In this document: positions 6,608 through 64,000 of the stretch, piece after piece
How the letters are laid out: each line of letters begins with the position of its first letter
Numbering within the stretch: the first letter of the stretch is position 1
Assembly: GCA_016211245.1 (NCBI GenBank)
Contig: JACQSQ010000013.1
Location: 796 to 64,795 of the forward strand
Source: Candidatus Woesearchaeota archaeon
GTDB taxonomy: Archaea > Nanobdellota > Nanobdellia > Woesearchaeales > GW2011-AR4
Direction of reading: 5' to 3'
Length of the DNA: 64,000 bases
Position numbers and translations under genes: made by a program
Notes under the pieces: generated by a model
Databases searched by the model: none
The model's input: the letters and a program-made list of their open reading frames with translations, nothing else
Told to the model about the DNA's origin: nothing

Positions 6608-7654
6608 ATGGCTGGTGAAACAAAAAACCGGATTAATCTGGGAAAAAAAGCAAGAATACTTCTCATATCACTAACCGGTATAGGCAACCTGATCATGCTC
6701 ACTCCAGCTTTTGCCAACATCAAAAAAAACCTGCCTGAATCCGAATTGTATGTAATGGTCTCTGAAAGGTCTGTGCATGCAGCAAGAAATAACCCGCATA
6801 TTGACAAGCTGATTTTGTACCCTTCCAAAAAGAATTTCATCCAAAAGATGATATTCTTGCTGAAGCTTAGGAAAAACAATTATGATCTGGCTTATTATTC
6901 ATTTCCAAATAGGAATATCCTGAGCGATATATTCCTGTTCCTGACAGGCGCAAAGGAAAAAATAAATTACTATTACCCATTATTCGGCATTGAAAATTTC
7001 TGCTTCAGCGATGCATGCATGGAGCCAGACTTAAAGCGGCATGATCTGGAAAAGGGCATGGACTTGCTGAGATTGTGCAATCTAAAGATTTATTCAAAAA
7101 AGCCCGTTATTAACCCTTCAATGGACGATTATAAGTTTATAGAGGGCTTATTAAAAAATAAGGCTTCAAAAAGCGACATACTGATAGGAATGCATGTGGG
7201 TACTATAGACAATGAGAAAATATGGCCGACTGAAAATTTTGCACATGTTGCAAAAGAGCTTGCTAAAAATAAAAATACCAAAATAATTTTGATAGGCAGC
7301 GAGATAGAAAAAAATTTAGTCAGGAATTTTGGCGAATTCAGGCACAGGAATGTAATAAACCTTATAGGCAAAACCTCGGTGCTTCAGACTGCCGCATTGC
7401 TCAAGAAATGCAGGCTTTTGGTAACAAATGACTCCGGGCCAATGCATATTGCGGTGGCTGTCGATACCAAGGTAGTTGCCATATTTCTTGCTTCTGACAT
7501 CAGAAGGACAGGGCCTTATGACAAAAAGCACATTGTCTTGTCAAAGAGGGGATATTATGATAAAAGCGATGGAAACAAAAACCACATCTACACAGACAAT
7601 ATAACTCCCGAGCTGGTGCTGTCGCAAATAAGGAAAATTTTGAAAGCAAAATGA
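6608..7654 (+). CDS. glycosyltransferase family 9 (heptosyltransferase-like)
   Basis: N-terminal ILLISLTGIGNLIMLTPAF and C-terminal LLVTNDSGPMHIAVAV (GT9 signature TNDSGPMH); stop overlaps next gene start (ATGA). Confidence 0.75.
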   Translation: MAGETKNRINLGKKARILLISLTGIGNLIMLTPAFANIKKNLPESELYVMVSERSVHAARNNPHIDKLILYPSKKNFIQKMIFLLKLRKNNYDLAYYSFPNRNILSDIFLFLTGAKEKINYYYPLFGIENFCFSDACMEPDLKRHDLEKGMDLLRLCNLKIYSKKPVINPSMDDYKFIEGLLKNKASKSDILIGMHVGTIDNEKIWPTENFAHVAKELAKNKNTKIILIGSEIEKNLVRNFGEFRHRNVINLIGKTSVLQTAALLKKCRLLVTNDSGPMHIAVAVDTKVVAIFLASDIRRTGPYDKKHIVLSKRGYYDKSDGNKNHIYTDNITPELVLSQIRKILKAK

Positions 7655-12087: not shown

Positions 12088-12144
12088 ACACCAAGCTAAA
12101 TTATATATATTTATATACGTTTGCATAATCTCGTTTTAGAACTC

Positions 12145-43554: not shown

Positions 43555-43559
43555 TTAAA

Positions 43560-47933: not shown

Positions 47934-48858
47934 CTACAACGGCAAGAATTTGCTTGAAAACATGTTAAGATCGATTTCTAAATTAAGATATAGGGATTGC
48001 GAGATTATTGTTCTTGACAACAAATCAACAGATGGGAGCCAGGAATTTGTTAGAAAGCTTAGGAATGTAAAACTGGTGGAGAATCCATCCAACATGGGCT
48101 ATTCCGGCATAAATTCTGCAATCAAATATTGCAAGGGAGAGCTTATATTATTCTTGAACAATGACATGGAATTGGATTCCAATTGCCTGAAAGAGCTTGT
48201 AAAAACAATAAACTCAGACAAGAATGCTTCTATGGCTGTCCCAAGATTAGTGAATTTTTATGATAAAAACCTGAAATCAGGAGGAACATGGCTGTCTAGG
48301 GCATTTTATAATGGACATTTAAAAGCGACTGGAAACGAAAAAATAAGTGAAGTGCCTTATCTTGGAGTTGGGCTGATAAGAAAGGATTTTGTAGATTTAT
48401 TCGGTTATCTATTTGACCCTGATTACTTTATCTATGGCGAGGATGTGGATTTGGGGCTTAGGATACGATTAACAGGAAAGAAAGTGCTGTTTGACCCGAA
48501 AGCTATAATGTACCATCTGCATTCTGTAACAATGCAGAAGCAAAGCAGATCGTTTTCTACGTATTTAATGGAAAGAAATCTTCTTATAACTGCTTTCAAG
48601 AATCTTGAAATCAAGAATCTTGCTTTATTCCTCCCTTATATTAAACTGATGAGGTTTGTTGCCTTTGTCAAAGATATTCTTACCTTAAGATTTGATTTGG
48701 CATTTTCAAGATTAAGGGCAATGTTTTGGATATTATTAAATTTCAACAAGGTTTTGAGAAAAAGGAATGAGACGCAGAAATTCAGGAAATCTGACGATTC
48801 TTATATTCTGAAAGTGTTTAGCGAGAAATACATATTTAAGGAAAAGTTCAATGTTTGA
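47899..48858 (+). CDS. glycosyltransferase family 2
   Basis: VSIIIVNYNGKNLLENMLRSI, VLDNKSTDGS, NNDME, YGEDVDL. Confidence 0.75.
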   Translation: MRKSFVSIIIVNYNGKNLLENMLRSISKLRYRDCEIIVLDNKSTDGSQEFVRKLRNVKLVENPSNMGYSGINSAIKYCKGELILFLNNDMELDSNCLKELVKTINSDKNASMAVPRLVNFYDKNLKSGGTWLSRAFYNGHLKATGNEKISEVPYLGVGLIRKDFVDLFGYLFDPDYFIYGEDVDLGLRIRLTGKKVLFDPKAIMYHLHSVTMQKQSRSFSTYLMERNLLITAFKNLEIKNLALFLPYIKLMRFVAFVKDILTLRFDLAFSRLRAMFWILLNFNKVLRKRNETQKFRKSDDSYILKVFSEKYIFKEKFNV

Positions 48859-50344
48859 TTTCGTACACTATGGTGCCGGTTTCTTTGTTGGAGTAAGCAA
48901 TATTATACCCTTTTGTTTGTATGGCTTTTAATGAGTTATCGTCTAAAATGGCCCTTCTATCAAGCCAGAAATCCTGGTTTGTGAACATATACTTCGCTTT
49001 TCCCAAGTTTTCTTCGTCAAAATACAAGGAAATCCTTTCGATGTTGTAGGGAATGCACTGCCCGTTTGCTATAAACACATCATCATGATTTGTGTTTTCC
49101 TTTACCCATTTAAAGTCTTCTTTATAGAAATTCCAGTAATTTGAGGCCAGATAAGTTTTTGCGAAAGAGGTGAAGACAAAGCCCGCAGAAACCAATACTA
49201 TCAAGACTATGAAAATTTTTTTCAGAGAAACATTACTTAAAACCTTATCATACCCAAAAGCCCAGAAAACAGCCAAGGCCGGAAACCCAGGCAGAATTAT
49301 TCTTGAAACTCCGAAGCCGACATTCGGGACATAGAGCAGGAATAAGATGAAGTAAGAAAAAATCCACACGCCAAGCTTGCCTTTTTCATCAAATTTCCTG
49401 AAAAACCCAACGAACAAGGGAATGAGGAATACAAAAGTGCCGAACAGCCATATTGGGAGCAGCATTTTCATGTATTTTATGTCCAACAATGACAATAAGG
49501 TGTAGTTTCCGTCAGGCACGCCAAAAATCCCGAAATAAGTCGATATTATGAGATTCGGGCTTGCCAGCCTCTCAAACTCGAAAATACTGTATGACTTTAA
49601 TTCATAGCCCTTAAATGCAAAATTAAGGAAAGGCCAGATTGGGTTGCCCAGCAACAGCCAGTTTCTTATGAACCATGGAGAAGGTATAAGCAAAGATATT
49701 ACAATTAATATTATCGATTTTTTAAAAAATAATTTGTTGTTGGAAGTCTTTTTGTATAGGATAAACAGCAGCACAGGAATGACAAATAATCCATTGTATT
49801 TGGTTAAAATGGACAATCCAGCAGCGATTCCAGAGAGATATATCTTATCATTCATCAAGAAATATATACTCAAAACCACAAAAAACACAAGCATGCTCTC
49901 TACATAACTTAATACGCTGTAGTCGATAAAAATCGGGATGAATGCGAGGAAAATTGCCGAATAAAATGCAATTTTTGAATTTATTAATTTCTTAATAATT
50001 AAAAATGAAAATGCTAAAGACAAAATGCCGAATATCGGCGATATGAATTTGACCGCAAAGTTTGCGGCATTATGGCTAAACGAATTAAAAATGAAATAAA
50101 CGATTGCAGCAAAAATATGGTATAAAGGGGGACTCCAGAACGGCTCGTCCCTGCCTAAAGGCTCGAATAAAGGAATTTTTTTGTTCTCCGCCATGAACCT
50201 TGAGATTGACATGTACCAGCAGCCATCTCCAGAGATATGGTAGGGTGAGGTTAAAGACAGAACAATTAACGAGAAAAGAATAATTAAGTATATTGAATAT
50301 TTGGTGTATTTGTCATAGCTTTGGAATTCCTTAATCCTGCTCAT
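48848..50344 (-). CDS. GT-C fold membrane glycosyltransferase (PMT/ArnT-like)
   Basis: N-terminal DGCWYMSISRFMAENKKIPLFEPLGRDEPFWSPPLYHIFAA loop typical of family 39/83 GT-C; about 12 TM. Confidence 0.55.
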   Translation of the reverse strand: MSRIKEFQSYDKYTKYSIYLIILFSLIVLSLTSPYHISGDGCWYMSISRFMAENKKIPLFEPLGRDEPFWSPPLYHIFAAIVYFIFNSFSHNAANFAVKFISPIFGILSLAFSFLIIKKLINSKIAFYSAIFLAFIPIFIDYSVLSYVESMLVFFVVLSIYFLMNDKIYLSGIAAGLSILTKYNGLFVIPVLLFILYKKTSNNKLFFKKSIILIVISLLIPSPWFIRNWLLLGNPIWPFLNFAFKGYELKSYSIFEFERLASPNLIISTYFGIFGVPDGNYTLLSLLDIKYMKMLLPIWLFGTFVFLIPLFVGFFRKFDEKGKLGVWIFSYFILFLLYVPNVGFGVSRIILPGFPALAVFWAFGYDKVLSNVSLKKIFIVLIVLVSAGFVFTSFAKTYLASNYWNFYKEDFKWVKENTNHDDVFIANGQCIPYNIERISLYFDEENLGKAKYMFTNQDFWLDRRAILDDNSLKAIQTKGYNIAYSNKETGTIVYEIKH

Positions 50345-51348
50345 TTCAACAACCTTATTATCGCATCTGCAAATCCGTCAATATCATCTTTTTTTACCAA
50401 AATCCCATTCTTTACAATCTCAGGGTGAGAGCCTATGCCGAATGCAACAACTTTTTTGCCGCAGGCTTGTGCCTCTGCTACCGGCAGGTCAAACCCTTCC
50501 CATAATGAAGCTGTAACATACAAATTACACGCAGCATAATAGTTTGGAAGCTCTTTGTCATTTATTGATTCCTTAAATATAACGTTCTTATTTGCCGCTT
50601 CCTTCAATTCTTTATAATATCTTTTGAATGTTGGCTTTCCAGCTATTAACAGCTTTGTATTCTGCATTTCCTCATTAACGATGTCAAAGATTTTCAACAG
50701 GGTATGGATGTTTTTATGTGGCGATAATCTGCCTATGAAGAATAGCAATTTCTCTTTATCCTCAACTCTAAGCTTTTTCCTGACTGCCTTTCCGCTTAAT
50801 CCCTTTCTGTATCTTGGATCAATTTTGTTGTAGACGACCTCACTATCAATTCCCGTCTCTTTTTTTAACTCGTCTTTCAGGAATTTGCTGACTGAAACAG
50901 CTTCATCAACACTGTTTAATGACAATTTAGTGAAATAACCAAATAATTTCATGTAAATTTTTTCTAATGGATTGCTAAAAAGCTCACTATAACCAACCCC
51001 ATGATTATAATAGATATATTTTATCCCGTAATGCCTTTTCGCTTCGGAAGCAATACTATTCATTGGGTACTGATGCGAAATAATCAAATTATAATCTTTT
51101 AATTTATTGACTGCCTTGCTCATTTTTAAAAAATCTAAAAAGAAAAATAACCTGTATACTCTCTGCAGAAACAATGATTTTGGCATTCCCAGTATCTCTA
51201 ACTTGTAGCCATCGGGCTTGATATTTCCTTCAAGTGCGAAAACAGTAACTTCATTACCCTTACTACTGTACTCCTTAGCCTGCTGCTCTGCAACCCTGTC
51301 AGGGCCGCTATAGTGGGAAAATGTGGATGTAAGGATAGCCGTTTTCAT
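50341..51348 (-). CDS. glycosyltransferase family 4
   Basis: FIGRLSPHKNIHTLLKIF, EGFDLPVAEAQACGKKVVAF (EX7E). Confidence 0.8.
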   Translation of the reverse strand: MKTAILTSTFSHYSGPDRVAEQQAKEYSSKGNEVTVFALEGNIKPDGYKLEILGMPKSLFLQRVYRLFFFLDFLKMSKAVNKLKDYNLIISHQYPMNSIASEAKRHYGIKYIYYNHGVGYSELFSNPLEKIYMKLFGYFTKLSLNSVDEAVSVSKFLKDELKKETGIDSEVVYNKIDPRYRKGLSGKAVRKKLRVEDKEKLLFFIGRLSPHKNIHTLLKIFDIVNEEMQNTKLLIAGKPTFKRYYKELKEAANKNVIFKESINDKELPNYYAACNLYVTASLWEGFDLPVAEAQACGKKVVAFGIGSHPEIVKNGILVKKDDIDGFADAIIRLLK

Positions 51349-51495
51349 TATTATAGAATTTAATTGACTGGTTTAAAAATGTTGTTAAGAACAGAATGCT
51401 GCCAGTTTATCGTTAGATTTGTTTGTGACAATTTTTAATCAAAAGCTTTAAAAACATACTTCCGATTTTGCATACCAATGATTCAGCCAGATACC

Positions 51496-52701
51496 ATGAG
51501 GAAAGTCGATTACTGGTTAGGGATACCTATCTGTTTTGCGCTCACAATATGGTACAAGCTGCAAAGATTACTGGGATTGAAAAATCCAAAATATAATGAA
51601 AAGCCAAAGAATGTACTGTTTATAGAATTAGCGGAAATGGGAAGCACCGTTTTAGCTTATCCTACGATTAAAAAGCTGAAGTCAACATATCCAAATGCCA
51701 ATGCGCATTTTTTGCTGTTCAAGCACATTGATGCGAGCATGGAAATCTTGAACGTAATACCAAAAGAAAATGTTTTGACAATTGAGGTTAAGAATATTTT
51801 TACCTTGACAAGGGATACTTTAAAGCTCATGTATACCTGCAGGAAAAAGAAGGTTGATACTGTCATAAATCTTGAGATGTTTGCGAGGTACAGCACGATA
51901 TTAGGGTATATAAGCGGTGCAAGAAAAAGAGTTGGGTTTTACGGGTATGAGATGGAAGGCTTGTATATTGGAAACTTTTTAACTCATAAAGTAATTTACA
52001 ATCCGCACATCCATACGGCGCATTCCTTCATCGCATTAGTAAGGGCATTGCAGTCTCCATTAAATGAAGCCCCAATGGCCAAATACTCAATCTTGGAAGA
52101 CAAACTGGGAGTGCCAAAGATAAAATCGGATAATAAGGCAAAGGAAAACATATGGAAGAAACTAAAAGAAATAAATCCCGATGTCAATGAGAAGAAGAAA
52201 TTGATTTTGGTTAATCCAAATGCAAGCAAGCTGATAGCCATAAGGAAATGGCCGTTGGAGAATTATGCCAAATTAGTAAAAAAACTGATTGAAGATAAGG
52301 ATATTTATGTTGTTATTATCGGAGTTGTCAATGAAAAACCTGATGCAGAATTTATTGTTGATTATGTTAAAAATAAAAGAGTTCTGGATTTAACCGGAAA
52401 GACTACTTTGAAAGAACTGATTGATTTATTTAATATTGGAAAAGTTTTGGTGACAAACGATTCAGGACCTGCTCATTTTGCTTCATTGACAAACATCCAC
52501 ATAATTGTCTTTTTTGGGCCTGAAACGCCTGAATTGTACAAGCCGATGAGCGCCAATGTGACTGTCATGTACTCCCATTTTGCATGCAGCCCCTGCGTTT
52601 CTGCATACAACCAGAGATTGAGCCCGTGCAATAATAATTTGTGCCTTAAGAGCATTGATGTGGAGAGGGCTTATGGGACCGTGAGGAAGGTTGTTAAATA
52701 A
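51496..52701 (+). CDS. glycosyltransferase family 9 (heptosyltransferase-like), paralog 2
   Basis: NVLFIELAEMGSTVLAYPTIKKLK, VLVTNDSGPAHFASL. Confidence 0.75.
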   Translation: MRKVDYWLGIPICFALTIWYKLQRLLGLKNPKYNEKPKNVLFIELAEMGSTVLAYPTIKKLKSTYPNANAHFLLFKHIDASMEILNVIPKENVLTIEVKNIFTLTRDTLKLMYTCRKKKVDTVINLEMFARYSTILGYISGARKRVGFYGYEMEGLYIGNFLTHKVIYNPHIHTAHSFIALVRALQSPLNEAPMAKYSILEDKLGVPKIKSDNKAKENIWKKLKEINPDVNEKKKLILVNPNASKLIAIRKWPLENYAKLVKKLIEDKDIYVVIIGVVNEKPDAEFIVDYVKNKRVLDLTGKTTLKELIDLFNIGKVLVTNDSGPAHFASLTNIHIIVFFGPETPELYKPMSANVTVMYSHFACSPCVSAYNQRLSPCNNNLCLKSIDVERAYGTVRKVVK

Positions 52702-54990: not shown

Positions 54991-56598
54991 ATGAAATTAA
55001 ATAAGAAATATCTGCAGACTTTCATCTTTATACTTGTATATCTCTATGCCATTTACTTCTGGTCGCAGCCCCTGCAGGAAAGAAAACTGCCTTATGGGGA
55101 ATATGACGCGATGTCTCATTTTGAAGTGGCAGACTATATTGCCTATCATGACAAGTCATTCATGAAGCTGCCGCCCTACATTGACTTGAGGTACGGGAAT
55201 GACAACCAATTCAGGCCGCATACCTTGTGGTATCCGCCGGCATTCCACAGCTCCTTGGCAGCTGCGGAAGCGATTGGAGGGGAAAGGGTAGTGCCTGTGT
55301 TTTTGATGAATGCAATACTCTCAACTTTTATTATTATAACCGTTTATTTTGTCATAAGCTCTTTATTCGGCTTTCTGCCTGCGATTCTCTCAGCAATCTT
55401 ATTAATTTTCTCGCCAAGAGACTTCATGCCCCACTTATGGGGGCAATGGCCCGAGAGGTTTGCCTATGCCCTTATACCAATAATATTGTACTGCTTTTAC
55501 AAATATCTGGCAAGCTTTCAGCAGGAAAAGAAAGACCAAAAATACATATATTTTGCAGCGCTATTTCTTGGAATAGACATTTTAGTGCATCCATTGGCAT
55601 TCTTTCATTCTGCAGCCGGATTGCTTGTGCTTTATATATTCATGGCAATAAAGCATAGAAAAGCATTCTTTAATCTAAAACATTTGGCGATTGCAGCACT
55701 AATCTTTATTGTGTTATTCATGATGTTTCCCTACCAAACACTTGATATTTTCTCGACATTCAAGTCTAAACCAAACAGCCAAGCCCCAGCCATGGACTTC
55801 TCAAGGATGTTCAAATGGAGCCTAAACCCTGCTGATTACTCGGGAAGCGTTCCTTCAAATTATTTTTCATTTGGAGAAATGCATGGGTTATGGACAATGC
55901 CTTTTTTGTTGCTGGGCATATTATTCCTGGCTTTGAGGAGGGAAGACAAGGACATGCTGCTTTTGGCATGGCTTGTGAGCCTTTACCTTGTCTTGCACAG
56001 GGACTTTGTTGGCAAAGCAACTTTTTTGCACAGGTCCCTGTCGGCGACAGCCCATATATTCGCCCCTCTGACAGCAATCGGGGCCGTTTCCATTGCCTCT
56101 TTTGTGAGGCTTCCGGCAAACTATAAAATATATTTAAAATACGGAATAGCGGCTTTATTTGCGGCACTAGCCATTTATTTTAATTTTGCATACGCTTCCA
56201 GGGTGCTGAATAAAGACACCTATAATGATTTTTTAGGAACCTTAAACCAGCAGGAATTTGACGCAGGAAATTGGATTTTGAAGAATGCTCCTGAGCAATA
56301 CACAGTTTCTGTTTTGGGGATTCCGCACCAGGATAATTTAATAGGCGGAACAGCAAAGAAAATACGATGGTTGGCTGCTGTTTCGCAGCATGTAAGCAGG
56401 TTTTATTACCTTTATCCGGCAAATGAAACACAAAATCACCTGAAAAATGACTATTTCCTTGTTGACTACACTATGGCTTTAGCCATGAGTGATGCTGAAA
56501 CTTCCAGCAAGCTGCAGGCTTTTGAAAAAAACGAGCTTTCAGGGCATACTTTGCTTTATGATAAGGGAAACATAAAGGTGTATAAGCTTGAACCTTAA
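54991..56598 (+). CDS. polytopic membrane protein (GT-C-like candidate)
   Basis: More than 10 TM with a large extracytoplasmic C-terminal region; no motif verified. Confidence 0.35.
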   Translation: MKLNKKYLQTFIFILVYLYAIYFWSQPLQERKLPYGEYDAMSHFEVADYIAYHDKSFMKLPPYIDLRYGNDNQFRPHTLWYPPAFHSSLAAAEAIGGERVVPVFLMNAILSTFIIITVYFVISSLFGFLPAILSAILLIFSPRDFMPHLWGQWPERFAYALIPIILYCFYKYLASFQQEKKDQKYIYFAALFLGIDILVHPLAFFHSAAGLLVLYIFMAIKHRKAFFNLKHLAIAALIFIVLFMMFPYQTLDIFSTFKSKPNSQAPAMDFSRMFKWSLNPADYSGSVPSNYFSFGEMHGLWTMPFLLLGILFLALRREDKDMLLLAWLVSLYLVLHRDFVGKATFLHRSLSATAHIFAPLTAIGAVSIASFVRLPANYKIYLKYGIAALFAALAIYFNFAYASRVLNKDTYNDFLGTLNQQEFDAGNWILKNAPEQYTVSVLGIPHQDNLIGGTAKKIRWLAAVSQHVSRFYYLYPANETQNHLKNDYFLVDYTMALAMSDAETSSKLQAFEKNELSGHTLLYDKGNIKVYKLEP

Positions 56599-56917
56599 AA
56601 ACGAATCAAAGGAAATATTGATTTTTGCATCAATTGCGCTATTAACAGCTTTAGCCTTCTCATTTTGGCTTTTCAGCTTGACAGGACTTAAAGTTGCATT
56701 GGCGATTATTATAGGATTTTTGCCATTTTACATATTCCTCAATGCATTAAGCCTGGAAGAAGGCGAGAAGATAGTCTTTTCATTATTGCTTGGGATTACA
56801 TTGTTCCCGTCTATTGCATTTCTTTTAGGATTTTTAATGCCTTTCAGGCTTTCAATGGCAGTTGCTTTTGCAGCCTTGGCAGCAGCGGCATTTGCGGCTG
56901 CAAAATTCAGGAAATAG
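56588..56917 (+). CDS. small 3-TM membrane protein
   Basis: Hydrophobicity only. Confidence 0.25.
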   Translation: MNLKNESKEILIFASIALLTALAFSFWLFSLTGLKVALAIIIGFLPFYIFLNALSLEEGEKIVFSLLLGITLFPSIAFLLGFLMPFRLSMAVAFAALAAAAFAAAKFRK

Positions 56918-56921
56918 GAAG

Positions 56922-58061: not shown

Positions 58062-58436
58062 CTATTTTCTTAAATTAAATGCAATTCCTGCCAAAACCAG
58101 TGCTGCCGGCAACAAAATTCCATGGTATTTGATATTTAGCCCAATCAAGCCAAGATAATAGCTCAAAATTCCTATGACTGCAGCTGACAAAGCAATTCCA
58201 ATCACGAATCTTTCAAGGAAATCCAGCTTTTCTTCCCAATAAATCATTATACAATAGCCCGGAAGAACAAAAAGCCAGAATAACGATAAGGCAAATCTTA
58301 ACGAGACAATGAAGCTATCTTTATAATATATGATTTTTAGTATAATCAAACCTATCAAAAACAATATTCCAATGTACACTGATTCTTTCTTGACTACTTC
58401 AAAAATTTCTTTGCTCAATGCAATCAGCTCCAACAT
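58062..58436 (-). CDS. small 4-TM membrane protein
   Basis: Hydrophobicity only; overlaps start region of upstream gene. Confidence 0.3.
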   Translation of the reverse strand: MLELIALSKEIFEVVKKESVYIGILFLIGLIILKIIYYKDSFIVSLRFALSLFWLFVLPGYCIMIYWEEKLDFLERFVIGIALSAAVIGILSYYLGLIGLNIKYHGILLPAALVLAGIAFNLRK

Positions 58437-60078
58437 TGCTGTTTTTCAATACAATTATATTATTATTCTCAAAAACTATTTTGATATAGTCTTTCTTCAA
58501 CAACTCATTTGCAATTAATAGGTTATATTGTGCAAAGACAGGCTGTGCAGTTCTTCTGTCAAATACAAGGTAATTGAAATTGCAAATGTCCTTTGTTCCA
58601 AATCTGATTTCTTCCGGCAGTTCGTCAATGCCGAACTTAAATGAAAATAATGATTCTCTTATTGGAGCGCCGCCGCCTGCATCTCCTGGCAATTCTGAGT
58701 CATAATTTCTTCTAACTTCCCTTTTGTTTATAGCGTCTATGAAACCTTCAGGAGTAACCTGGTAATGGGCTCTTTTTGCGTTTCTCAATAATGCATCTTG
58801 ACTATATATGTCGCCGTAAAAGAAATATACTTTTACATCGTCTTCAGCGTTTTTCGCAATCCAGTTGAACATGTCCCAATGCTCTTTGCCCATCAAACCA
58901 TTACTTTGTATCTTTTGATAATGCGGAATTAAAGGGATATTTGGAATTATCACCAAAATAATCAGAATTATAGATAATGATATTGAATGCCATACCTTCC
59001 ATTCTTTGATTATCAATTTCAAAATCCAGTAAATTCCAAATCCAACAAGAAATGACAAAAATATCGGCCAGAAAAATCTTAATTGGAAAGCCTTTTCCCT
59101 AAATCCAATATAGTTTGAAAGCCCGACGAGAAGCATGCTTAGCGAAGCAATTGTTGGAACAAGGCTTTTTTTAATGAAAAGTAATGATGCAATAAATCCA
59201 ATTACCATAAAAACAAGAAGCAGCTTGAAATCCATCAAATAGATTGTTGGATTGTCCCATCTTAATGACGCAGCAAACTCAAATGGTTGTCGAGGAATCC
59301 AGACTCCTTTAAAAATAATAAAGTAATAAAGCGTCAATGCCAGCGTAATGATAGCTCCAAAAGCGAAATTCTTTATTATACCAAAATCAATTTTTTTATT
59401 GGTTAATAAATATCCAATTAAAAATATAATCAAGTATATCGCAGCAAACAATGTCTCAGAAGTATGGGTCATAAATGTTGCAGCCATAACAATTCCAAGA
59501 AAGATGTAAGACTTGTGCAGATTATTCCTAGAAGTGTACCAAAAAATGCAAATGAGGAAAAATTGAGACAATAAAGTCGGCCAATGTCCGAATAGGAATC
59601 CTGTGTACAACCCAGAGGAGAAAACAAGCAACGATATTGGAAGAGAGATTAATGCAACATTTTTGTTGAACTGCCTAATTACGAGATACATAACTAAAGA
59701 TGCCAAGGCAGCAAAAAAGAATACACTAAAGTAAATTGTGTCATAAACCTCCAAACCGCTTAGATGAGATAAGATTACGCTTAAATGGTATAGTACTGGC
59801 GGATAGTAGCCTGTCGCGCCTTCAACGCCCATCACAATGTAGCTTGCCTCATCCCTGTAATTGCCTGCGTCCTTAATGCTTTGCGCTCTTGTCTGGTGCT
59901 GAAATGCATCAGAAGCCATGTATGCGTAAGGGTAATCGTGCTGCAATTGATGGTCGAACAAAAATCCTGTGCCTAGATAAAGAAAGACACCAAAAAAAAT
60001 TACAAGCACAATCTTTTCTAAGTCAAGCCTGATTTTGAACACCTTTCCCAAATTTTTTTGCATAGATAAAATAACCAA
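58399..60078 (-). CDS. polytopic membrane protein with C-terminal soluble domain (GT-C-like candidate)
   Basis: About 11 TM then 170-aa hydrophilic tail; no WWDYG or DxD OST motif found. Confidence 0.4.
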   Translation of the reverse strand: MVILSMQKNLGKVFKIRLDLEKIVLVIFFGVFLYLGTGFLFDHQLQHDYPYAYMASDAFQHQTRAQSIKDAGNYRDEASYIVMGVEGATGYYPPVLYHLSVILSHLSGLEVYDTIYFSVFFFAALASLVMYLVIRQFNKNVALISLPISLLVFSSGLYTGFLFGHWPTLLSQFFLICIFWYTSRNNLHKSYIFLGIVMAATFMTHTSETLFAAIYLIIFLIGYLLTNKKIDFGIIKNFAFGAIITLALTLYYFIIFKGVWIPRQPFEFAASLRWDNPTIYLMDFKLLLVFMVIGFIASLLFIKKSLVPTIASLSMLLVGLSNYIGFREKAFQLRFFWPIFLSFLVGFGIYWILKLIIKEWKVWHSISLSIILIILVIIPNIPLIPHYQKIQSNGLMGKEHWDMFNWIAKNAEDDVKVYFFYGDIYSQDALLRNAKRAHYQVTPEGFIDAINKREVRRNYDSELPGDAGGGAPIRESLFSFKFGIDELPEEIRFGTKDICNFNYLVFDRRTAQPVFAQYNLLIANELLKKDYIKIVFENNNIIVLKNSNVGADCIEQRNF

Positions 60079-62287
60079 AGTATAATAAGATTAATACAAA
60101 TGATATAACACTTATCATTTTTCCCCTAGCATACGATTTTGGCTTGTATTCAAATTTAACCTCGCTTTTTTCACCATTTAGATAAACAGCTGTTACTATC
60201 CCATTTGCTTTATGCATTTTAACTTCATTTCCATTTATGCTTGCCTTCCATCCGGGAAAATCAACAAATCTTTCTGAAGCAACAAGCCATCTTTTTTGGC
60301 CGCTCAATTCCAAAATGACTTTGTTGTTTTTGTATTCTTTGACCGGAGCCTCAACATAACTTCCTTTTGAAATATTGAATATTTTATTCACATCCTCTTC
60401 TGTGACTGTATTTTGGCCTGAGAAAAGATCTGGCACTATCACTCCTCCATAATCCACATACTGCCTTAGCAATCCTATGCTGTTGTCATCGACAGAATCC
60501 CGAACTAAGAAGATAACATCAAACGTTTTCAGGAAATCCAAGCTGTAATCATTTATTTTTGCGCCCTCAATCAGGACGCTTTCATTGGGCTTCCAGCTCT
60601 GGGACATTATGGTGTATGTAAGCTGCCTTACAAGCTCTTGATTTCCAGCAATCAAAATGCTTTTGGGCGCCATGTAGTATCTTGGAAGCTGATAGGTATT
60701 ATTGTAAAGATAAGGCCCCCATGCTTCCCAGATTGAGCATTCCCTGCAATTATTGTACCTGCCTATGAGCTTGAATCCTTCAATATCTTCCTTTTCGCTT
60801 AATATAGCATATTTGCTGTTAAGCACAGCATAGAATTTGGCTGGTGAACTTTGCGCTACACTCAGGTAAATTATATAATCATTAAACCAGATTCCAGAGC
60901 CGCCTTTTAACTCTGAAATCCCTTTTTGGGCATAATAATTGTAGCCTGCAGCTCCAATCAAGTCCTTTAATGCAAGGTTTATGACCCTGAATTGCGAATT
61001 GTCTTGCGACATTTTCTCTACTATCGGGATTTCGCCAGGATTTACCACTTTTATTGATTGAGGTGCTGCTTGAATTAGAAATAATTCAAAAAAAATAATA
61101 CTAAAAATAACCCTGAAAATCCATTTCTTGTCAAGCTTTTGATACCTCTCAAGCAAAGAGTTCAATGCCAATAACCCAAATCCTGCAAGAATTGATGCTG
61201 CAAATGCAAACAAAACCAAGGCTCTTTCTATATGCCTTGTTTGGCTGAATACCGGAACATTGAACAATAATTTTGACAAAAAGGATTCTGTCGACAGCAA
61301 TAATGACAATAACACAATAATTGCGGCAAAAATGACTGCTTTGTTCTTATAATTTTTTAACCCCAATATTAAAAGGATTATCCCTGCAAGCCCTACTGCT
61401 GCCGACAAGCCCTGGCCATTAAAGAAGATATTTGACACAAATGCAAAAAGGAAATTGCTTAGCTTGACCGGCTCGCCAAGATATTGCTCATATGAGATGC
61501 CTGCTCCCCTGTTGGACAGCTTCATGAACTCCAAACCGGGAAGCAATTTTATTGCGGAAAGGCCAAAGAAGACGGCAATAATAATTATGCCTGCAACTGA
61601 GAGTTTTATCAACCTGTTTAATATGTTTTTATCAATCAAGTAAGTTGTTGAATAAGCCAAGATTAAGATGAACAGGTATGGAAGATAAATGACGCCGCCG
61701 ACAGAAACAAGCAATGCGGCAAAGATTCCTGCAAGCATTGAATATAATATATATTCTTTTGTTTTTAATGATCTTATTGTAAAAAATAATATAAAAGGCA
61801 ATAAGGAATATCCTTCTATTATCATTATGTTGCCCGGGATAATAAAAGAATGCATGAAACCGTTGAACATGTAAAGCAAAGCTGCAATGAATCCTGCTCT
61901 CTTGTCTTCGCTTAAGTAATAAACTAATAAGTACATTCCCAATCCGGCAAGAAAAAGGTGGACTATAACAGTGAAGTTCATTGCCAGATAAATATTTCCG
62001 GTCAGCAAAATAAAAAATAAATTCAGGTCAATGAAATAGTACTCAGGCTGCGCAAACAAAGGCCTTCCGGAATAGTAATAAGGGGTCCATAAAGGCAAAG
62101 AGCCTTCTGACAATGACTTTTTCATGTTGTAAGAGTAGAAAGTAACATCATTGATGTAATGCACATTGTTGAGGATTTTTGAAGCGCTTATTATGCCGTG
62201 GAAGAAAAATAAGGATAGAAATAACAGTATAATTGCAAGATAGTGCTCTTTAATGAAGCTCTTGATTTTATTTAGATACTCTTTCAA
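60023..62287 (-). CDS. YfhO-like GT-C membrane glycosyltransferase (754 aa)
   Basis: TTG start; about 13 N-terminal TM, large extracytoplasmic domain, final C-terminal TM helix (MISVISFVLILLYFGYFIY) as in YfhO family. Confidence 0.45.
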   Translation of the reverse strand: MKEYLNKIKSFIKEHYLAIILLFLSLFFFHGIISASKILNNVHYINDVTFYSYNMKKSLSEGSLPLWTPYYYSGRPLFAQPEYYFIDLNLFFILLTGNIYLAMNFTVIVHLFLAGLGMYLLVYYLSEDKRAGFIAALLYMFNGFMHSFIIPGNIMIIEGYSLLPFILFFTIRSLKTKEYILYSMLAGIFAALLVSVGGVIYLPYLFILILAYSTTYLIDKNILNRLIKLSVAGIIIIAVFFGLSAIKLLPGLEFMKLSNRGAGISYEQYLGEPVKLSNFLFAFVSNIFFNGQGLSAAVGLAGIILLILGLKNYKNKAVIFAAIIVLLSLLLSTESFLSKLLFNVPVFSQTRHIERALVLFAFAASILAGFGLLALNSLLERYQKLDKKWIFRVIFSIIFFELFLIQAAPQSIKVVNPGEIPIVEKMSQDNSQFRVINLALKDLIGAAGYNYYAQKGISELKGGSGIWFNDYIIYLSVAQSSPAKFYAVLNSKYAILSEKEDIEGFKLIGRYNNCRECSIWEAWGPYLYNNTYQLPRYYMAPKSILIAGNQELVRQLTYTIMSQSWKPNESVLIEGAKINDYSLDFLKTFDVIFLVRDSVDDNSIGLLRQYVDYGGVIVPDLFSGQNTVTEEDVNKIFNISKGSYVEAPVKEYKNNKVILELSGQKRWLVASERFVDFPGWKASINGNEVKMHKANGIVTAVYLNGEKSEVKFEYKPKSYARGKMISVISFVLILLYFGYFIYAKKFGKGVQNQA

Positions 62288-62561: not shown

Positions 62562-63260
62562 CTAATCAACAAACCTGTACTTAACCAGATAATAAACTGC
62601 TTTTATTCCATCAACCCATGTTATCTTCTTGCCTTCTGCAAACTTCCTTCCGTAGAAATTGATTGGAACTTCATGAATTTTATAGCCTTTCTTCAGTATT
62701 TTGGCTGTTATCTCAGGCTCAAAGTCAAACCTTGCGGCCTTTAAATTGATTCCATTAAGAACTTCTTTCCTGAATGCCTTGTAGCAGGTTTCCATGTCAG
62801 TTATCTTTACGCCGTAAAGCATATTCGTAAGCAAAGTTAAAAATAAATTTCCGGCATAATGCAGCTTGTACATCTTGCTCAGGTTTTTAGTTATCATCTC
62901 AAACCTTGAGCCGTAAACGACTTTTGTTTTGTTCTCAACTATGGGCTTTAATAATTTTTCATAGTCATTCGGGTCATACTCTAAATCAGCATCTTGGATT
63001 AGGATTATATCGCCTGTTGCCTGCTTTAGCCCAGTTCTTATCGCAGAGCCCTTTCCCTTGTTCTTTTCATGATAGACTATTTTTATGCTCTTGTCTTTTA
63101 GTTTTTTTAGGATGTCTCTTGTGCCGTCTTTTGAGAAATCATCTACCACAATTATTTCTTTGGCAAAATTTAATGTTTTTGCTTTCTTTACTTTGCCTAT
63201 AATCTTCAGTATAGTGGCTTTTTCATTGTAAACTGGCATTATGATTGAAAGTTTTGGCAT
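62562..63260 (-). CDS. glycosyltransferase family 2, Dpm1-like polyprenyl-phosphate glycosyltransferase
   Basis: [34 protein letters not shown]; nearly collinear paralog of 24864-25559. Confidence 0.8.
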   Translation of the reverse strand: MPKLSIIMPVYNEKATILKIIGKVKKAKTLNFAKEIIVVDDFSKDGTRDILKKLKDKSIKIVYHEKNKGKGSAIRTGLKQATGDIILIQDADLEYDPNDYEKLLKPIVENKTKVVYGSRFEMITKNLSKMYKLHYAGNLFLTLLTNMLYGVKITDMETCYKAFRKEVLNGINLKAARFDFEPEITAKILKKGYKIHEVPINFYGRKFAEGKKITWVDGIKAVYYLVKYRFVD

Positions 63261-63291: not shown

Positions 63292-63780
63292 TTATTGTTT
63301 TTTATAAGTTGATAGAATTTTATTGATTATCCTGCTTGTTGAATGCTTCTTTTCTGCTTTAGCAATTACTATCCTTCCGCCATTTTTTTCAACAATCTCT
63401 TTTTCTATTATTTGGCTTAATTTATAATCGCCGGCTTTGACATGAACATTTGGTTTTATTTTATTCAACCAATCTCTCGGGTCTTTTTCATCAAACAGAA
63501 AAACATAATCTACAGATTCAAATGCAGCTATTACAGACGTTCTTGATTTCTCATCATTAATCGGCCTTTTGTCGCCTTTGTTTAGTTTTACTGATTTGTC
63601 CGTGTTTACGCCGACTACCAAGACATCCCCTAACTTCTTTGCCTCTTCCAGATACTGCACATGCCCTGCATGAATGATGTCAAAGACGCCGTTTGTTGTT
63701 ACTATTTTTTTATTTTTGTTTTTGGGTTTTTCAACTATTTTGATGATTTCGTTTAATGTTTTGATTTTGGAGTTGATCAT
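63292..63780 (-). CDS. D-glycero-D-manno-heptose 1-phosphate adenylyltransferase-like (HldE domain II/RfaE-II, cytidylyltransferase fold)
   Basis: TNGVFDIIHAGHVQYLEEAKKLGDVLVVGVNTD...KGDKRPINDEKSRTSVIAAFESVDYVFLFDEKDP...VKAGDYK...NGGRIVI...HSTSRII matches RfaE domain II. The archaeal FMN adenylyltransferase RibL is an alternative. Confidence 0.65.
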   Translation of the reverse strand: MINSKIKTLNEIIKIVEKPKNKNKKIVTTNGVFDIIHAGHVQYLEEAKKLGDVLVVGVNTDKSVKLNKGDKRPINDEKSRTSVIAAFESVDYVFLFDEKDPRDWLNKIKPNVHVKAGDYKLSQIIEKEIVEKNGGRIVIAKAEKKHSTSRIINKILSTYKKQ

Positions 63781-64000
63781 TTTAATTATACTTGATATAT
63801 AGGTAAAATGAAACTATTATTATGCTAATTATACAACCTAATAATACCATACACATATCTTCTTAAAGATTTCTTACGTTTACTAATAATCATATTTTCT
63901 GCCTTATTATCTTTAAATACCCAAATCCAATATGTTAAATTGTCATAAAGTTTAAAGCCGAAAATAGGATCAGAAACAATACCATGAATTTTTTCATATT

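What the first reader, a model, noticed from the sequence alone, without database searches (positions are those of the whole stretch)
63292..63780. ADP-heptose-type module (HldE-II-like adenylyltransferase plus two GT9 heptosyltransferase paralogs) in an apparently archaeal glycan locus
A stand-alone 162-aa RfaE-domain-II-like nucleotidyltransferase lies at the right edge of the window. Two GT9-family genes carry the TNDSGP(M/A)H signature (6608-7654 and 51496-52701). GT9 and ADP-heptose are hallmarks of bacterial LPS cores and some S-layer glycans, and are unusual in archaea. The heptose isomerase GmhA, the kinase and the phosphatase GmhB are not in this window. This raises three possibilities: horizontal acquisition, pathway genes encoded elsewhere, or use of a different activated sugar.
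Basis: partly seen in the sequence, partly recalled or inferred. Interest (0 to 1): 0.6.

Follow-up and report, generated by a model that had tools for sequence, protein, structure and literature searches.

The report
Archaeal ADP-heptose enzyme, operon cut off
The small gene at the window's edge is a genuine heptose-activating enzyme (HldC type) of a tiny DPANN archaeon; the rest of its pathway lies just beyond the window edge, so the gene is ordinary for this lineage, although its setting hints that these archaea put a bacterial-style sugar, heptose, on their surface.

Summary
All three ORFs exist as described. The 162-aa protein (63292-63780, minus strand) passes the NCBIfam equivalog model for heptose-1-phosphate adenylyltransferase (187.2 bits, cutoff 181.5). 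Its best solved relative is Burkholderia HldC (E 2.6e-32). It is identical to NCBI MBI4452011.1 from a Candidatus Woesearchaeota MAG.

The "missing" genes are not missing. In all but one related DPANN locus with enough upstream sequence, an HldA kinase and a GmhB-like phosphatase lie directly upstream of HldC, on the side the window cuts off. A kinase (MBI4452494.1) and a cupin (MBI4452496.1) sit on a 49-kb contig that is probably from the same MAG.

The second GT9 (51478-52701) belongs to the conserved block downstream of HldC. The first GT9 (6608-7654) is an isolated paralog. Both fall below all heptosyltransferase equivalog cutoffs and lack the acidic residue at the WaaC Asp13 position.

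Heptose-nucleotide enzymes in archaea were reported in 2024, so the enzyme is a new member of a known kind. The unexpected results lie outside the window. In orthologous operons the GmhA slot holds either GmhA or a PMI-like cupin. The next slot holds either HldD or the uncharacterised GSU2086 family. The operon also sits a few kb from AglB (STT3).

The parts
63292..63780 (-). [quoted passage not shown] It is the last enzyme of the NDP-heptose operon.
   Evidence: TIGR02199 scores 187.2 bits against a cutoff of 181.5. The best PDB match is 5x9q, Burkholderia HldC, at 2.6e-32. The protein is identical to MBI4452011.1. It is 67-83% identical to orthologs that follow HldA and GmhB. The nucleotidyltransferase core NGVFDIIHAGH and the C-terminal HSTS are present.
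63781..64000 (.). AT-rich region upstream of HldC, running to the window edge. It shows that HldC is not translationally coupled to GmhB in this genome.
   Evidence: Sequence read. It shows no similarity to the upstream regions of relatives. In L001, L004 and L010 a spacer of 0.6-2 kb with small ORFs also separates GmhB from HldC.
62562..63260 (-). GT2 glycosyltransferase of 232 aa, resembling polyprenyl/dolichyl-phosphate-sugar synthases. It starts 31 bp after the HldC stop codon and is a conserved downstream partner.
   Evidence: Best NCBIfam match is AglJ (TIGR04182) at 123.5 bits, below its cutoff, followed by Dol-P-hexose transferase. It is 78% identical to the gene at the same position in L008.
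60023..62287 (-). Polytopic membrane protein of 754 aa resembling YfhO/PTPS_related proteins (GT-C-like). Syntenic.
   Evidence: Pfam PTPS_related at 1.3e-6 and YfhO at 5.8e-5. It is 60% identical to the L008 ortholog at the same position.
58399..60078 (-). Membrane protein of 559 aa with no family match. It overlaps the previous gene and is syntenic.
   Evidence: No Pfam or NCBIfam hit. It is 70% identical to the L008 546-aa ortholog.
58062..58436 (-). Small membrane protein of 124 aa. Syntenic.
   Evidence: 74% identical to the L008 118-aa ortholog.
54991..56598 (+). GT-C-type membrane glycosyltransferase-like protein of 535 aa (DUF6541/PMT_2). Syntenic.
   Evidence: Pfam DUF6541 at 1.6e-10 and PMT_2 at 1.6e-6. 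It is 65% identical to the L010 ortholog.
51478..52701 (+). GT9 #2, 407 aa. It is a conserved member of the block downstream of HldC and a candidate ADP-heptose-dependent transferase.
   Evidence: PF01075 at 2.6e-24. It is 81% identical to the L010 408-aa GT9 in the same relative position. The donor-side motifs RKWP and TNDSGPAH are conserved, but EMGS stands where WaaF/3TOV have GD. It falls below all heptosyltransferase equivalog cutoffs.
50341..51348 (-). GT4 glycosyltransferase of 335 aa. Syntenic neighbour of GT9 #2.
   Evidence: 75% identical to the L010 338-aa Glycos_transf_1 protein.
48848..50344 (-). GT-C-type membrane protein of 498 aa (PMT_2). Same relative position and Pfam family as the L010 506-aa PMT_2 protein; direct homology not tested.
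   Evidence: Pfam PMT_2 at 1.8e-12. Gene order in L010; the L010 protein was not used as a tblastn query.
6608..7654 (+). GT9 #1, 348 aa. It is a paralog 55 kb from HldC and is not part of the conserved block.
   Evidence: PF01075 at 6.3e-30. Best PDB match is 3tov at 8e-25. It has GIGN where the solved enzymes have GD. Only three 50%-identity clusters exceed 40% identity; the one of these that carries organism labels is from Woesearchaeota. The next tier is bacterial at about 30%, including Omnitrophota.

Best explanation
The 162-aa protein is the stand-alone HldC-type nucleotidyltransferase of a Woesearchaeota (DPANN) genome. [quoted passage not shown] It is the last gene of a conserved operon: [S7P isomerase: GmhA or a PMI-like cupin] - [GSU2086-family protein or HldD] - HldA kinase - GmhB phosphatase - HldC. 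The contig and window edge cut this operon just upstream of HldC. The missing part of this genome's copy is most likely the cupin-type version on a separate 49-kb contig. ADP-heptose is then used by cytoplasmic GT9 enzymes encoded in the same surface-glycan island. That island also holds GT2 Dol-P-sugar-synthase-like genes and GT-C membrane transferases, and in relatives AglB/STT3 lies 6-10 kb upstream. The product is a heptose-containing glycan on lipid carriers and surface proteins.

What is shown: family membership, gene order across about 20 loci, and strong sequence conservation. What is inferred: the substrate and nucleotide of this particular enzyme, the joining of the two contigs, the use of ADP-heptose by the GT9 proteins, and the N-glycan destination.
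For: Enzyme identity: TIGR02199 equivalog passed; best solved relative is HldC 5x9q at 2.6e-32 and 115 bits; the nucleotidyltransferase core and C-terminal STT/STS motif align with bacterial HldC and HldE domain II.

Linkage: every DPANN locus with at least 1.5 kb of upstream sequence has HldA and GmhB directly upstream, except L027. The L001 kinase passes TIGR02198 (379 bits, cutoff 345), and its HAD scores 173.2 against the GmhB cutoff of 178. The L012 SIS protein scores 207.3 against the gmhA cutoff of 209.45. L026 carries an HldD that passes its equivalog model (285 bits, cutoff 274.6).

Same genome: HldC is MBI4452011.1; kinase P0257 is MBI4452494.1 and passes TIGR02198 (378.5 bits); cupin P0178 is MBI4452496.1. 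The kinase and cupin are both on a 49,106-bp Woesearchaeota contig, and none of the top 120 HldC homologs sits on a contig of that length.

Selection: HldC is 69-81% identical across the top 120 of 1406 homologs, whereas neighbouring GTs are 25-35% identical between the window and L001.

Glycan context: the block HldC-GT2-YfhO-like-546-118 ... DUF6541-GT9(408)-GT4 is conserved between the window and L008/L010. STT3 and a 379-aa GT9 lie upstream in 10 distinct loci.

Precedent: archaeal heptose-nucleotide enzymes make ADP-heptose in vitro (PMC11573728, PMC11461863), and the T. acidophilum N-glycan contains a heptose (PMC11407970, PMC12448462).
Against: The equivalog score clears its cutoff by only 5.7 bits. 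The HENase consensus (F/L)XXGXSTT reads AEKKHSTS here, so three specified positions differ. The kinase, phosphatase and isomerase are not in the window. Assigning them to the same genome rests on accession proximity and contig lengths, not on sequence; neither contig could be fetched. L027 shows that HldC can occur without adjacent HldA and GmhB. Both window GT9 proteins fall below all heptosyltransferase equivalog cutoffs and carry Asn or Ser where WaaC has the proposed catalytic Asp13. No STT3 is in the window. No biochemical or glycan-composition data exist for any Woesearchaeote.
Confidence: 0.8

Rival explanations
1. The enzyme activates the same heptose with a different nucleotide, giving CDP- or UDP-heptose, as some HldC/HldE enzymes do.
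For: Some archaeal, bacterial and eukaryotic heptose nucleotidyltransferases make CDP- or UDP-heptose, and the STTR5 arginine is not strictly required for this (PMC11461863).
Against: The promiscuity hallmark, Arg at motif position 5, is absent. The window protein has His there, and the DPANN clade has Tyr, His, Phe or Asn. Every enzyme tested in that study also made ADP-heptose.
Confidence: 0.1
2. The pathway in this lineage activates a different sugar. With a PMI-like cupin in place of GmhA, it could run fructose-6-P to mannose-6-P to beta-mannose-1,6-bisphosphate to beta-mannose-1-P to ADP-mannose. HldC would then be an ADP-hexose synthase.
For: The cupin's nearest outgroup carries the PMI domain PF01050. 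The L041 cupin's best NCBIfam match is the PMI part of GMP_PMI. From general knowledge, untested here, many DPANN genomes have a reduced pentose-phosphate pathway, which would make sedoheptulose-7-P scarce.
Against: The cupin and GmhA occupy the same slot in operons whose HldA, GmhB and HldC are 60-80% identical, and cupin-type loci are interspersed with SIS-type loci in the tree. This argues for the same intermediate in both. L041 pairs the cupin with an HldD-like ADP-heptose 6-epimerase (260 bits), and that enzyme has no substrate in ADP-mannose.
Confidence: 0.07
3. It is an archaeal RibL-type FMN adenylyltransferase or another small cytidylyltransferase-fold enzyme (TagD-like or CoaD-like), unrelated to heptose.
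For: It has the same fold and a similar size. Pfam assigns only the generic CTP_transf_like family, with a weak FAD_syn hit at E 0.002. JGI annotates some orthologs as glycerol-3-phosphate cytidylyltransferase.
Against: TagD scores 43.5 bits against a cutoff of 165, CoaD models score 37 bits or less, and RibF-type models 25 bits or less. HldC scores 115 bits, against 64 bits for the Thermoplasma 3glv protein. The gene is conserved in an operon with the HldA kinase and GmhB.
Confidence: 0.03
4. HldC in this genome is an orphan. The upstream genes have been lost or separated, as in L027, so the enzyme depends on heptose-1-P from elsewhere, for example the host of this likely symbiont, or is a relic.
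For: At least 220 bp of non-coding sequence precede the gene instead of an overlapping GmhB. L027 has HldC-GT2-...-GT9 with no kinase or phosphatase within 2.9 kb upstream.
Against: A kinase and a cupin have accession numbers 483-485 away from HldC, on a contig that lacks an HldC among the listed hits. A second MAG from the same accession series shows the same assembly break. The ORF is intact and highly conserved.
Confidence: 0.05

Closest known systems
HldC (stand-alone) of Burkholderia pseudomallei, PDB 5X9Q, and domain II of E. coli HldE/RfaE
   Same: Same fold and family. The alignment covers residues 25-156 at E 2.6e-32. The NGVFDIxHxGH core, GDKRPIN loop and C-terminal STT-type motif are shared, and the monodomain architecture and size of about 160 aa match.
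   Different: The host is archaeal (DPANN). The C-terminal motif is AEKKHSTS, not FEHDRSTT, so it lacks Arg5. The gene sits in an N-glycosylation-type island rather than an LPS-core locus.
Archaeal NDP-heptose biosynthetic enzymes (HBEs) of Tang et al., Science 2024, as summarised in PMC11573728 and PMC11461863
   Same: Same four-step pathway (isomerase, kinase, phosphatase, nucleotidyltransferase) occurring in archaea, and the same monodomain class of nucleotidyltransferase.
   Different: Those summaries name Methanococcus maripaludis and state that the role of heptose in archaea 'remains elusive'. Here the operon is in Woesearchaeota and lies beside GT9 genes, with AglB nearby in relatives. 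The isomerase is often a cupin rather than GmhA. I could not read the primary paper, so I cannot say whether DPANN sequences were in its survey.
GT9 LPS heptosyltransferases WaaC, WaaF and WaaQ, and the GT9 structure 3TOV
   Same: The GT-B C-terminal donor domain aligns well, with xK/RxWP and TNDSGPxH. Pfam GT9 scores are above the gathering threshold.
   Different: All equivalog scores are below cutoff. The acidic residue at WaaC Asp13 is replaced by Asn in GT9 #1 and by a conserved Ser in GT9 #2, while the operon-core 379-aa clade of relatives has Glu. The acceptor cannot be Kdo-lipid A.
Geobacter sulfurreducens gmhA (GSU2087) - GSU2086 - hldE (GSU2085) operon
   Same: Same gene order (isomerase, GSU2086-family protein, kinase) as in the Woesearchaeota operon. 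The L001 297-aa protein scores 414 bits on NF052581. All three Geobacter genes show similar Tn-seq defects.
   Different: Geobacter has a fused HldE and an LPS context. In the archaea, HldA, GmhB and HldC are separate genes.
Heptose-containing N-glycan of Thermoplasma acidophilum
   Same: It shows that a heptose can be part of an archaeal N-linked glycan (PMC11407970, PMC12448462).
   Different: That sugar is D-glycero-D-galacto-heptose, in a euryarchaeote, and its biosynthetic genes are not described in the texts I read. No glycan structure exists for any Woesearchaeote.

Membership tests
HldC / HldE domain II (heptose-1-phosphate adenylyltransferase, HENase) | Score at or above the curated equivalog cutoff of TIGR02199 (rfaE_dom_II) | tested here: met
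   187.2 bits against a cutoff of 181.5, covering profile positions 2-143 of 144. The margin is narrow.
HldC / HldE domain II (heptose-1-phosphate adenylyltransferase, HENase) | Cytidylyltransferase-fold core with the HxGH nucleotide-binding signature | tested here: met
   NGVFDIIHAGHVQYL aligns with NGVFDILHRGHVSYL of 5x9q. The motif is invariant in the clade alignment.
HldC / HldE domain II (heptose-1-phosphate adenylyltransferase, HENase) | C-terminal HENase consensus (F/L)XXGXSTT (PMC11461863) | tested here: inconclusive
   The window has AEKKHSTS. Ser and the first Thr are kept, but F/L is Ala, Gly is Lys, and the last Thr is Ser. Most DPANN orthologs read [AMV]EKG[YHF]STT, and STS also occurs in L018 and in a gammaproteobacterial HldE, L039.
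HldC / HldE domain II (heptose-1-phosphate adenylyltransferase, HENase) | STTR5 arginine, the hallmark of CTP/UTP promiscuity (a subclass marker, not required for membership) | tested here: not met
   Position 5 is His in the window protein and Tyr, His, Phe or Asn in relatives.
HldC / HldE domain II (heptose-1-phosphate adenylyltransferase, HENase) | Genomic association with HldA kinase, GmhB phosphatase and an S7P isomerase | tested here: met
   Met in about 20 orthologous loci. For the window's own genome it is inferred from accession numbers MBI4452011, MBI4452494 and MBI4452496. None of these genes is in the window.
HldC / HldE domain II (heptose-1-phosphate adenylyltransferase, HENase) | Catalysis of ATP + beta-heptose-1-P to ADP-heptose + PPi | not testable with these tools
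   Needs an enzyme assay.
GT9 ADP-heptose-dependent heptosyltransferases (WaaC/WaaF/WaaQ type) | Pfam PF01075 above the gathering score | tested here: met
   104.7 and 86.3 bits against a cutoff of 22.
GT9 ADP-heptose-dependent heptosyltransferases (WaaC/WaaF/WaaQ type) | Equivalog-level match to a characterised heptosyltransferase | tested here: not met
   The best scores are 94.9 and 107.9 bits against the 134.6 cutoff of TIGR02195. All other models score lower relative to their cutoffs.
GT9 ADP-heptose-dependent heptosyltransferases (WaaC/WaaF/WaaQ type) | Donor-domain motifs (K/R-x-W-P and T/G-N-D-S/A-G-P-x-H) | tested here: met
   EKIWP and TNDSGPMH in GT9 #1; RKWP and TNDSGPAH in GT9 #2. 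Both align with WaaF 1psw and with 3tov.
GT9 ADP-heptose-dependent heptosyltransferases (WaaC/WaaF/WaaQ type) | Acidic residue in the N-terminal 'GD' motif. That WaaC Asp13 is the proposed catalytic base is recalled from the literature and was not checked here. | tested here: not met
   GIGN in GT9 #1. EMGS in GT9 #2, conserved in its L010/L011 ortholog. WaaF has VGDMM and 3tov has LGDVI at the aligned position. N-domain alignments are weak, so this is a caveat, not a disproof.
GT9 ADP-heptose-dependent heptosyltransferases (WaaC/WaaF/WaaQ type) | Conserved linkage to ADP-heptose synthesis genes | tested here: met
   GT9 #2 has its ortholog in the same block downstream of HldC in L010, L011 and L016. 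GT9 #1 shows no such linkage; it is 55 kb away and has no syntenic ortholog.
RibL (archaeal FMN adenylyltransferase) | Closer to RibL-type or FAD-synthetase models than to HldC, and no heptose-gene linkage | tested here: not met
   FAD_syn scores 18.3 bits, below its cutoff, and RibF-type models score 25 bits or less. The Thermoplasma 143-aa protein 3glv scores 63.7 bits against 115.3 for HldC. No dedicated RibL model was seen among the hits, so this test is indirect.
Canonical four-enzyme ADP-heptose pathway (GmhA, HldA, GmhB, HldC) | A SIS-fold GmhA isomerase | tested here: inconclusive
   Absent from the window. Present in the operon slot in 10 related loci. In 5 others, and on the 49-kb contig probably from the window's own MAG (P0178), a cupin takes its place. 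Whether a GmhA exists elsewhere in those genomes could not be searched.

The most novel reading that the evidence does not exclude
In Woesearchaeota the ADP-heptose operon is modular, with two slots that accept non-homologous genes. In slot 1, a small metal-binding cupin related to PMI and D-lyxose isomerase has repeatedly replaced GmhA and would be a new, non-orthologous sedoheptulose-7-phosphate isomerase. The window's own genome appears to carry this version. In slot 2, the uncharacterised GSU2086 family, which also sits between gmhA and hldE in Geobacter, alternates with HldD and could be a new ADP-heptose 6-epimerase or another heptose-tailoring enzyme. The operon's position beside AglB and GT9 genes would make heptose a building block of DPANN N-linked or surface glycans. 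That would supply a physiological role for archaeal heptose, which the discoverers of archaeal HBEs call elusive.
Probability: 0.45. Interest if true: 0.65.

Novelty: new member of a known kind. Interest (0 to 1): 0.4.

Why it matters
ADP-heptose is best known as an LPS-core precursor and as an innate-immune agonist sensed by ALPK1. Its enzymes were found in archaea only in 2024, and nobody knows what archaea use heptose for (PMC11573728). This locus and about 20 relatives place a complete, strongly conserved heptose operon next to GT9 transferases, Dol-P-sugar-type GT2 and GT-C enzymes and, in relatives, the oligosaccharyltransferase AglB. This gives a concrete and testable answer: heptose goes into surface or N-linked glycans of DPANN archaea. 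The comparison also brings up two candidate enzymes with no assigned function. One is the cupin in the GmhA slot. The other is the GSU2086 family in the HldD slot, which also occurs in bacteria. Both could be tested by simple complementation of E. coli gmhA and hldD mutants. The flagged gene itself is ordinary, and NCBI already annotates it correctly.

Tried and rejected
1. I tried to extend the window. The look-up of encoding contigs has neither the window's HldC nor the putative same-MAG kinase P0257 on record. The single genome-contig scan showed the source genome is not a GTDB representative; the best hit was 80% identical. So the two contigs could not be joined by sequence.
2. I aligned the 220 bp upstream of HldC with the upstream regions of five relatives. 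There was no similarity, so nothing could be said about what lies beyond the edge.
3. A tRNA scan of the window for taxonomic or integration clues found none.
4. I tested whether cupin-type loci form one clade, which would mean a single displacement. This was rejected: monophyly had 0 of 100 bootstrap support in an NJ tree of HldA+GmhB+HldC. The tree is a quick distance tree on 679 columns, so only the coarse result should be trusted.
5. A PDB sequence search for the GSU2086-family protein found no hit at E up to 1.
7. I looked for an HldD among the window's four SDR proteins. None qualifies; the best score is 123.9 bits against a cutoff of 274.6.
8. I considered the FkbH-like HAD protein (30063-31124) as a GmhB substitute and rejected it. 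It is HAD-IIIC/FkbH with a GNAT domain, not HAD-IIIA GmhB.
9. Literature searches for Woesearchaeota or DPANN with heptose or heptosyltransferase, and for a cupin-type S7P isomerase, found nothing relevant in the open-access library. The primary Science paper is not in the library.
Full report
OBSERVATION. The three ORFs exist as described. ORF 63292..63780 on the minus strand encodes 162 aa from an ATG. It matches Pfam CTP_transf_like at 1.2e-18. [quoted passage not shown] The two GT9 genes are real: 6608..7654 (+) matches PF01075 at 6.3e-30, and 51478..52701 (+) matches at 2.6e-24. Both carry the TNDSGP(M/A)H signature. The window holds no tRNA. It also holds no homolog of GmhA, the HldA kinase, GmhB or STT3.

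WHOSE GENE IT IS. The family is large, with 1406 proteins at E <= 1e-10. The best 120 are 69-81% identical to the query, and all that carry organism labels are Woesearchaeota or Nanoarchaeota. This conservation is much higher than that of neighbouring glycosyltransferases, which are 25-35% identical between the window and locus L001. HldC is thus a conserved anchor in a fast-evolving glycan island.

HldC OR RibL. Among solved structures the best match is Burkholderia HldC (5x9q), at E 2.6e-32 and 115 bits over residues 25-156. A 143-aa Thermoplasma protein (3glv) scores 64 bits, and TagD-type enzymes score 39 bits or less. TagD, CoaD and RibF-type NCBIfam models all score far below their cutoffs. 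An alignment with 18 further DPANN HldC sequences and 11 bacterial HldC/HldE sequences shows a shared core, NGVFDI(I/L)HxGH ... GDKRPIN ... VDY ... HVKAGDY, and a shared C-terminal motif. The published consensus for heptose nucleotidyltransferases is (F/L)XXGXSTT, and Arg at position 5 confers CTP/UTP promiscuity (PMC11461863, PMC11573728). Most DPANN orthologs read [AMV]EKG[YHF]STT. The window protein reads AEKKHSTS. The motif is recognisable but degenerate, and Arg5 is absent. This mildly favours an ATP-specific enzyme, though that is an inference.

WHERE THE REST OF THE PATHWAY IS. The gene lies 220 bp from the window's right edge, and its upstream side faces that edge. I fetched orthologous loci by exact-protein look-up and by one scan of GTDB representative genomes, then mapped components by tblastn. 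In every DPANN locus with at least 1.5 kb of upstream sequence, a PfkB kinase and a small HAD phosphatase lie directly upstream of HldC. The one exception is L027. The L001 kinase passes the HldA equivalog model (TIGR02198, 379 bits against 345). The L001 HAD scores just under the GmhB cutoffs (173.2 against 178, and 147.3 against 149.6).

The conserved order is: STT3(AglB) - GT2 - DUF2304 - GT9(379 aa) - NTP_transferase(-) - [slot 1] - [slot 2] - HldA - GmhB - HldC - GT2(232) - YfhO-like(~754) - ~546 aa - ~120 aa ... DUF6541/PMT_2(-) - GT9(408)(-) - GT4 - PMT_2. From HldC onwards the window has the same order: 62562-63260, 60023-62287, 58399-60078, 58062-58436, 54991-56598, 51478-52701 and 50341-51348, each matched at 60-81% identity, followed by a PMT_2 gene at 48848-50344 in the same relative position as the L010 PMT_2 protein. 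The window therefore begins in the middle of this operon. GT9 #2 is a conserved member of the island. GT9 #1 is not. Its only close relatives are three small clusters at 41-50% identity, of which the one carrying organism labels is from Woesearchaeota. After those come bacterial GT9 proteins at about 30%, including Omnitrophota proteins annotated 'heptosyltransferase II'.

THE WINDOW'S OWN GENOME. The source assembly is not a GTDB representative and is not in the contig index. I therefore used accession numbers, on the assumption that proteins deposited from one MAG are numbered consecutively. HldC is MBI4452011.1. Among the kinase homologs, P0257 is MBI4452494.1, and it passes TIGR02198 at 378.5 bits. 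Among the cupins, P0178 is MBI4452496.1. Both sit on a 49,106-bp Woesearchaeota contig. The spacing of two matches the order cupin-GSU2086-kinase, and another MAG shows the same spacing (MBI1935323 and MBI1935321). None of the 120 best HldC homologs sits on a 49,106-bp contig. The two contigs are thus complementary. A second MAG from the same accession series shows the same split: its HldC contig starts at GmhB (L007), and its cupin is 449 accession numbers away on an 8.4-kb contig. I conclude, as an inference and not a demonstration, that this genome has the full operon in its cupin version, broken by the assembly just upstream of HldC.

TWO INTERCHANGEABLE SLOTS (outside the window). Slot 1 holds a GmhA-like SIS protein in 10 distinct loci. 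The L012 copy scores 207.3 bits on TIGR00441 against a cutoff of 209.45. In 5 other loci the slot holds a cupin of about 135 aa. No locus has both.

The cupin family is a tight clade of 115 proteins, and every hit that carries an organism label is from Woesearchaeota or Nanoarchaeota. It matches Pfam Lyx_isomer above the gathering score. Its nearest outgroup carries the type II PMI domain, and the divergent L041 copy best matches the PMI part of GMP_PMI. The family keeps a site of three His and one Glu, plus invariant Lys and Arg residues. A high-confidence model (pLDDT 92.9) is most similar to D-lyxose/D-mannose-type sugar isomerases, although other cupins score similarly. PMI converts fructose-6-P to mannose-6-P, which is the C6 counterpart of the GmhA reaction.

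Slot 2 holds the uncharacterised GSU2086 family in most loci (NF052581, 414 bits; no PDB relative). In L026 it holds an HldD that passes its equivalog model (285 bits against 274.6), and in L041 an HldD-like protein (260 bits). All four combinations occur. Cupin-type loci are not monophyletic in a HldA+GmhB+HldC tree (0 of 100 bootstraps). In Geobacter sulfurreducens, GSU2086 lies between gmhA and hldE and shares their Tn-seq phenotype (PMC5585712).

Repeated in-place swapping is the classical signature of non-orthologous displacement. It suggests that the cupin is an S7P isomerase and that GSU2086 is an HldD analogue or another heptose-tailoring enzyme. The pairing of the cupin with HldD in L041 argues against an ADP-mannose pathway. 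I found no paper describing either idea.

THE GT9 PROTEINS. The donor-binding halves of the window's GT9 proteins align well with WaaF (1psw) and with 3TOV. However, both proteins fall below every heptosyltransferase equivalog cutoff. At the position of WaaC Asp13 they carry Asn (GT9 #1) or a conserved Ser (GT9 #2). The role of Asp13 as the proposed catalytic base is recalled from the literature and was not checked here. The operon-core 379-aa clade of relatives has a conserved Glu at that position. They are best described as GT9 enzymes that probably use ADP-heptose on a non-LPS acceptor. GT9 #2 has synteny support for this, and GT9 #1 has none.

MECHANISM AND CONTEXT. Best-supported model: S7P is converted to heptose-7-P by the isomerase, to the beta-1,7-bisphosphate by HldA, to beta-heptose-1-P by GmhB, and to ADP-heptose by HldC, possibly tailored by the slot-2 enzyme. 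Cytoplasmic GT9 enzymes then add heptose to a lipid-linked glycan. The island's GT2 Dol-P-sugar-synthase-like and GT-C (PMT_2, YfhO-like, DUF6541) proteins and AglB in relatives then complete and transfer the glycan. The window also encodes a WecB that passes its equivalog model and two NDP-sugar dehydrogenases, so the glycan is complex. A heptose is already known in the N-glycan of Thermoplasma acidophilum (PMC11407970, PMC12448462). The tight HldC-GT2 pairing (31-bp gap, conserved in most loci) followed by a YfhO-like protein raises an untested alternative: a Dol-P-heptose intermediate used outside the membrane.

ORIGIN. The nearest non-DPANN HldC sequences retrieved are bacterial, at 41-55% identity (Leptotrichia, Omnitrophota, Nitrospirae and others). 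The next relatives of GT9 #1 are bacterial, including Omnitrophota. The operon order is shared with Geobacter. An ancient acquisition from bacteria followed by vertical inheritance in Woesearchaeota is plausible, but I did not test the direction of transfer.

VERDICT. The flagged gene is an ordinary, already correctly annotated member of the HldC family in a lineage where it is common. The apparent absence of the other pathway genes is an edge effect. The points of interest lie in the wider comparison: the heptose operon beside AglB and GT9 genes in DPANN archaea, and the cupin/GmhA and GSU2086/HldD alternations.

Noticed in passing
L001:6433-6879, L004:5023-5433, L008:7188-7595, L010:6438-6845, L041:6964-7323, compared with L012:7052-7618 and 9 other SIS-type loci: The slot between the divergent NTP_transferase gene and the next operon gene holds either a GmhA-like SIS protein or a PMI/D-lyxose-isomerase-like cupin, never both. 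Cupin-type loci are not monophyletic. The cupin is a candidate non-orthologous sedoheptulose-7-P isomerase.
   Followed up: yes
L008:7614-8510 and orthologs, compared with L026:7529-8479 and L041:7320-8228: The uncharacterised GSU2086 family (NF052581, weakly resembling deoxyhypusine synthase, no PDB relative) alternates in the same slot with HldD, the ADP-heptose 6-epimerase. In Geobacter, GSU2086 lies between gmhA and hldE and has the same Tn-seq phenotype. It may be an HldD analogue or a heptose-tailoring enzyme.
   Followed up: partly
L041:11302-14481: A second, divergent module lies just downstream of the first. It comprises a 355-aa fusion of an HldC-like domain and a GmhB-like HAD domain, a divergent PfkB kinase on the opposite strand (rfaE_dom_I at 120 bits, far below its cutoff) and another SDR. 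It may be a pathway for a different NDP-sugar.
   Followed up: partly
window right edge (63781-64000), L007:1-661, and NCBI accessions MBI2655243/MBI2655692 and MBI4452011/MBI4452494: Two independent MAGs, whose protein accessions fall in the same MBI series, have their assemblies broken at the same place, between the kinase/phosphatase part and HldC. In other loci this spacer varies from 0 to 2 kb and holds small ORFs or a 459-aa ORF. This suggests a strain-variable or repeat-bearing spot.
   Followed up: partly
window 6608-7654 and 51478-52701; L008:3880-5016 and orthologs: At the WaaC Asp13 position, three DPANN GT9 clades carry Asn, a conserved Ser and a conserved Glu respectively, while the L027 GT9 keeps Asp. 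This may reflect different acceptors or a relocated catalytic base.
   Followed up: partly
window 31152-37130 (-): An ORF of 1992 aa has no Pfam match at E <= 1e-3, in the middle of the glycan island. It may be a giant surface protein, and so a possible glycosylation target.
   Followed up: no
window 7651-8700, 8594-9895, 45274-46413, 56862-58061: Four paralogous ORFs of about 350-430 aa have an N-terminal hydrophobic segment and a GDS(V/F)T motif, seen by eye in the translations. They resemble SGNH/GDSL hydrolases or acyl-esterases and are scattered through the island. They were not tested against any library.
   Followed up: no
window 30063-31124 (-) and 43551-45296 (+): An FkbH-domain protein (HAD-IIIC plus GNAT; TIGR01686 at 238 bits, above its cutoff) and a two-domain carbamoyltransferase (Carbam_trans_N/C) are present. 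They suggest acylated or carbamoylated sugars in the glycan.
   Followed up: partly
window 10624-12126, 12121-13761, 48848-50344, 54991-56598, 60023-62287: The window holds at least five GT-C-type polytopic membrane proteins (PMT_2, DUF6541, YfhO/PTPS_related). This is an unusually high density of candidate extracytoplasmic glycosyltransferases for one locus.
   Followed up: partly
window 4056-4568 (+): A 170-aa ORF looks by eye like the C-terminal part of a transposase (HPHLHIIT..., RYVRHPAI...), near the left boundary of the glycan genes. It was not tested.
   Followed up: no
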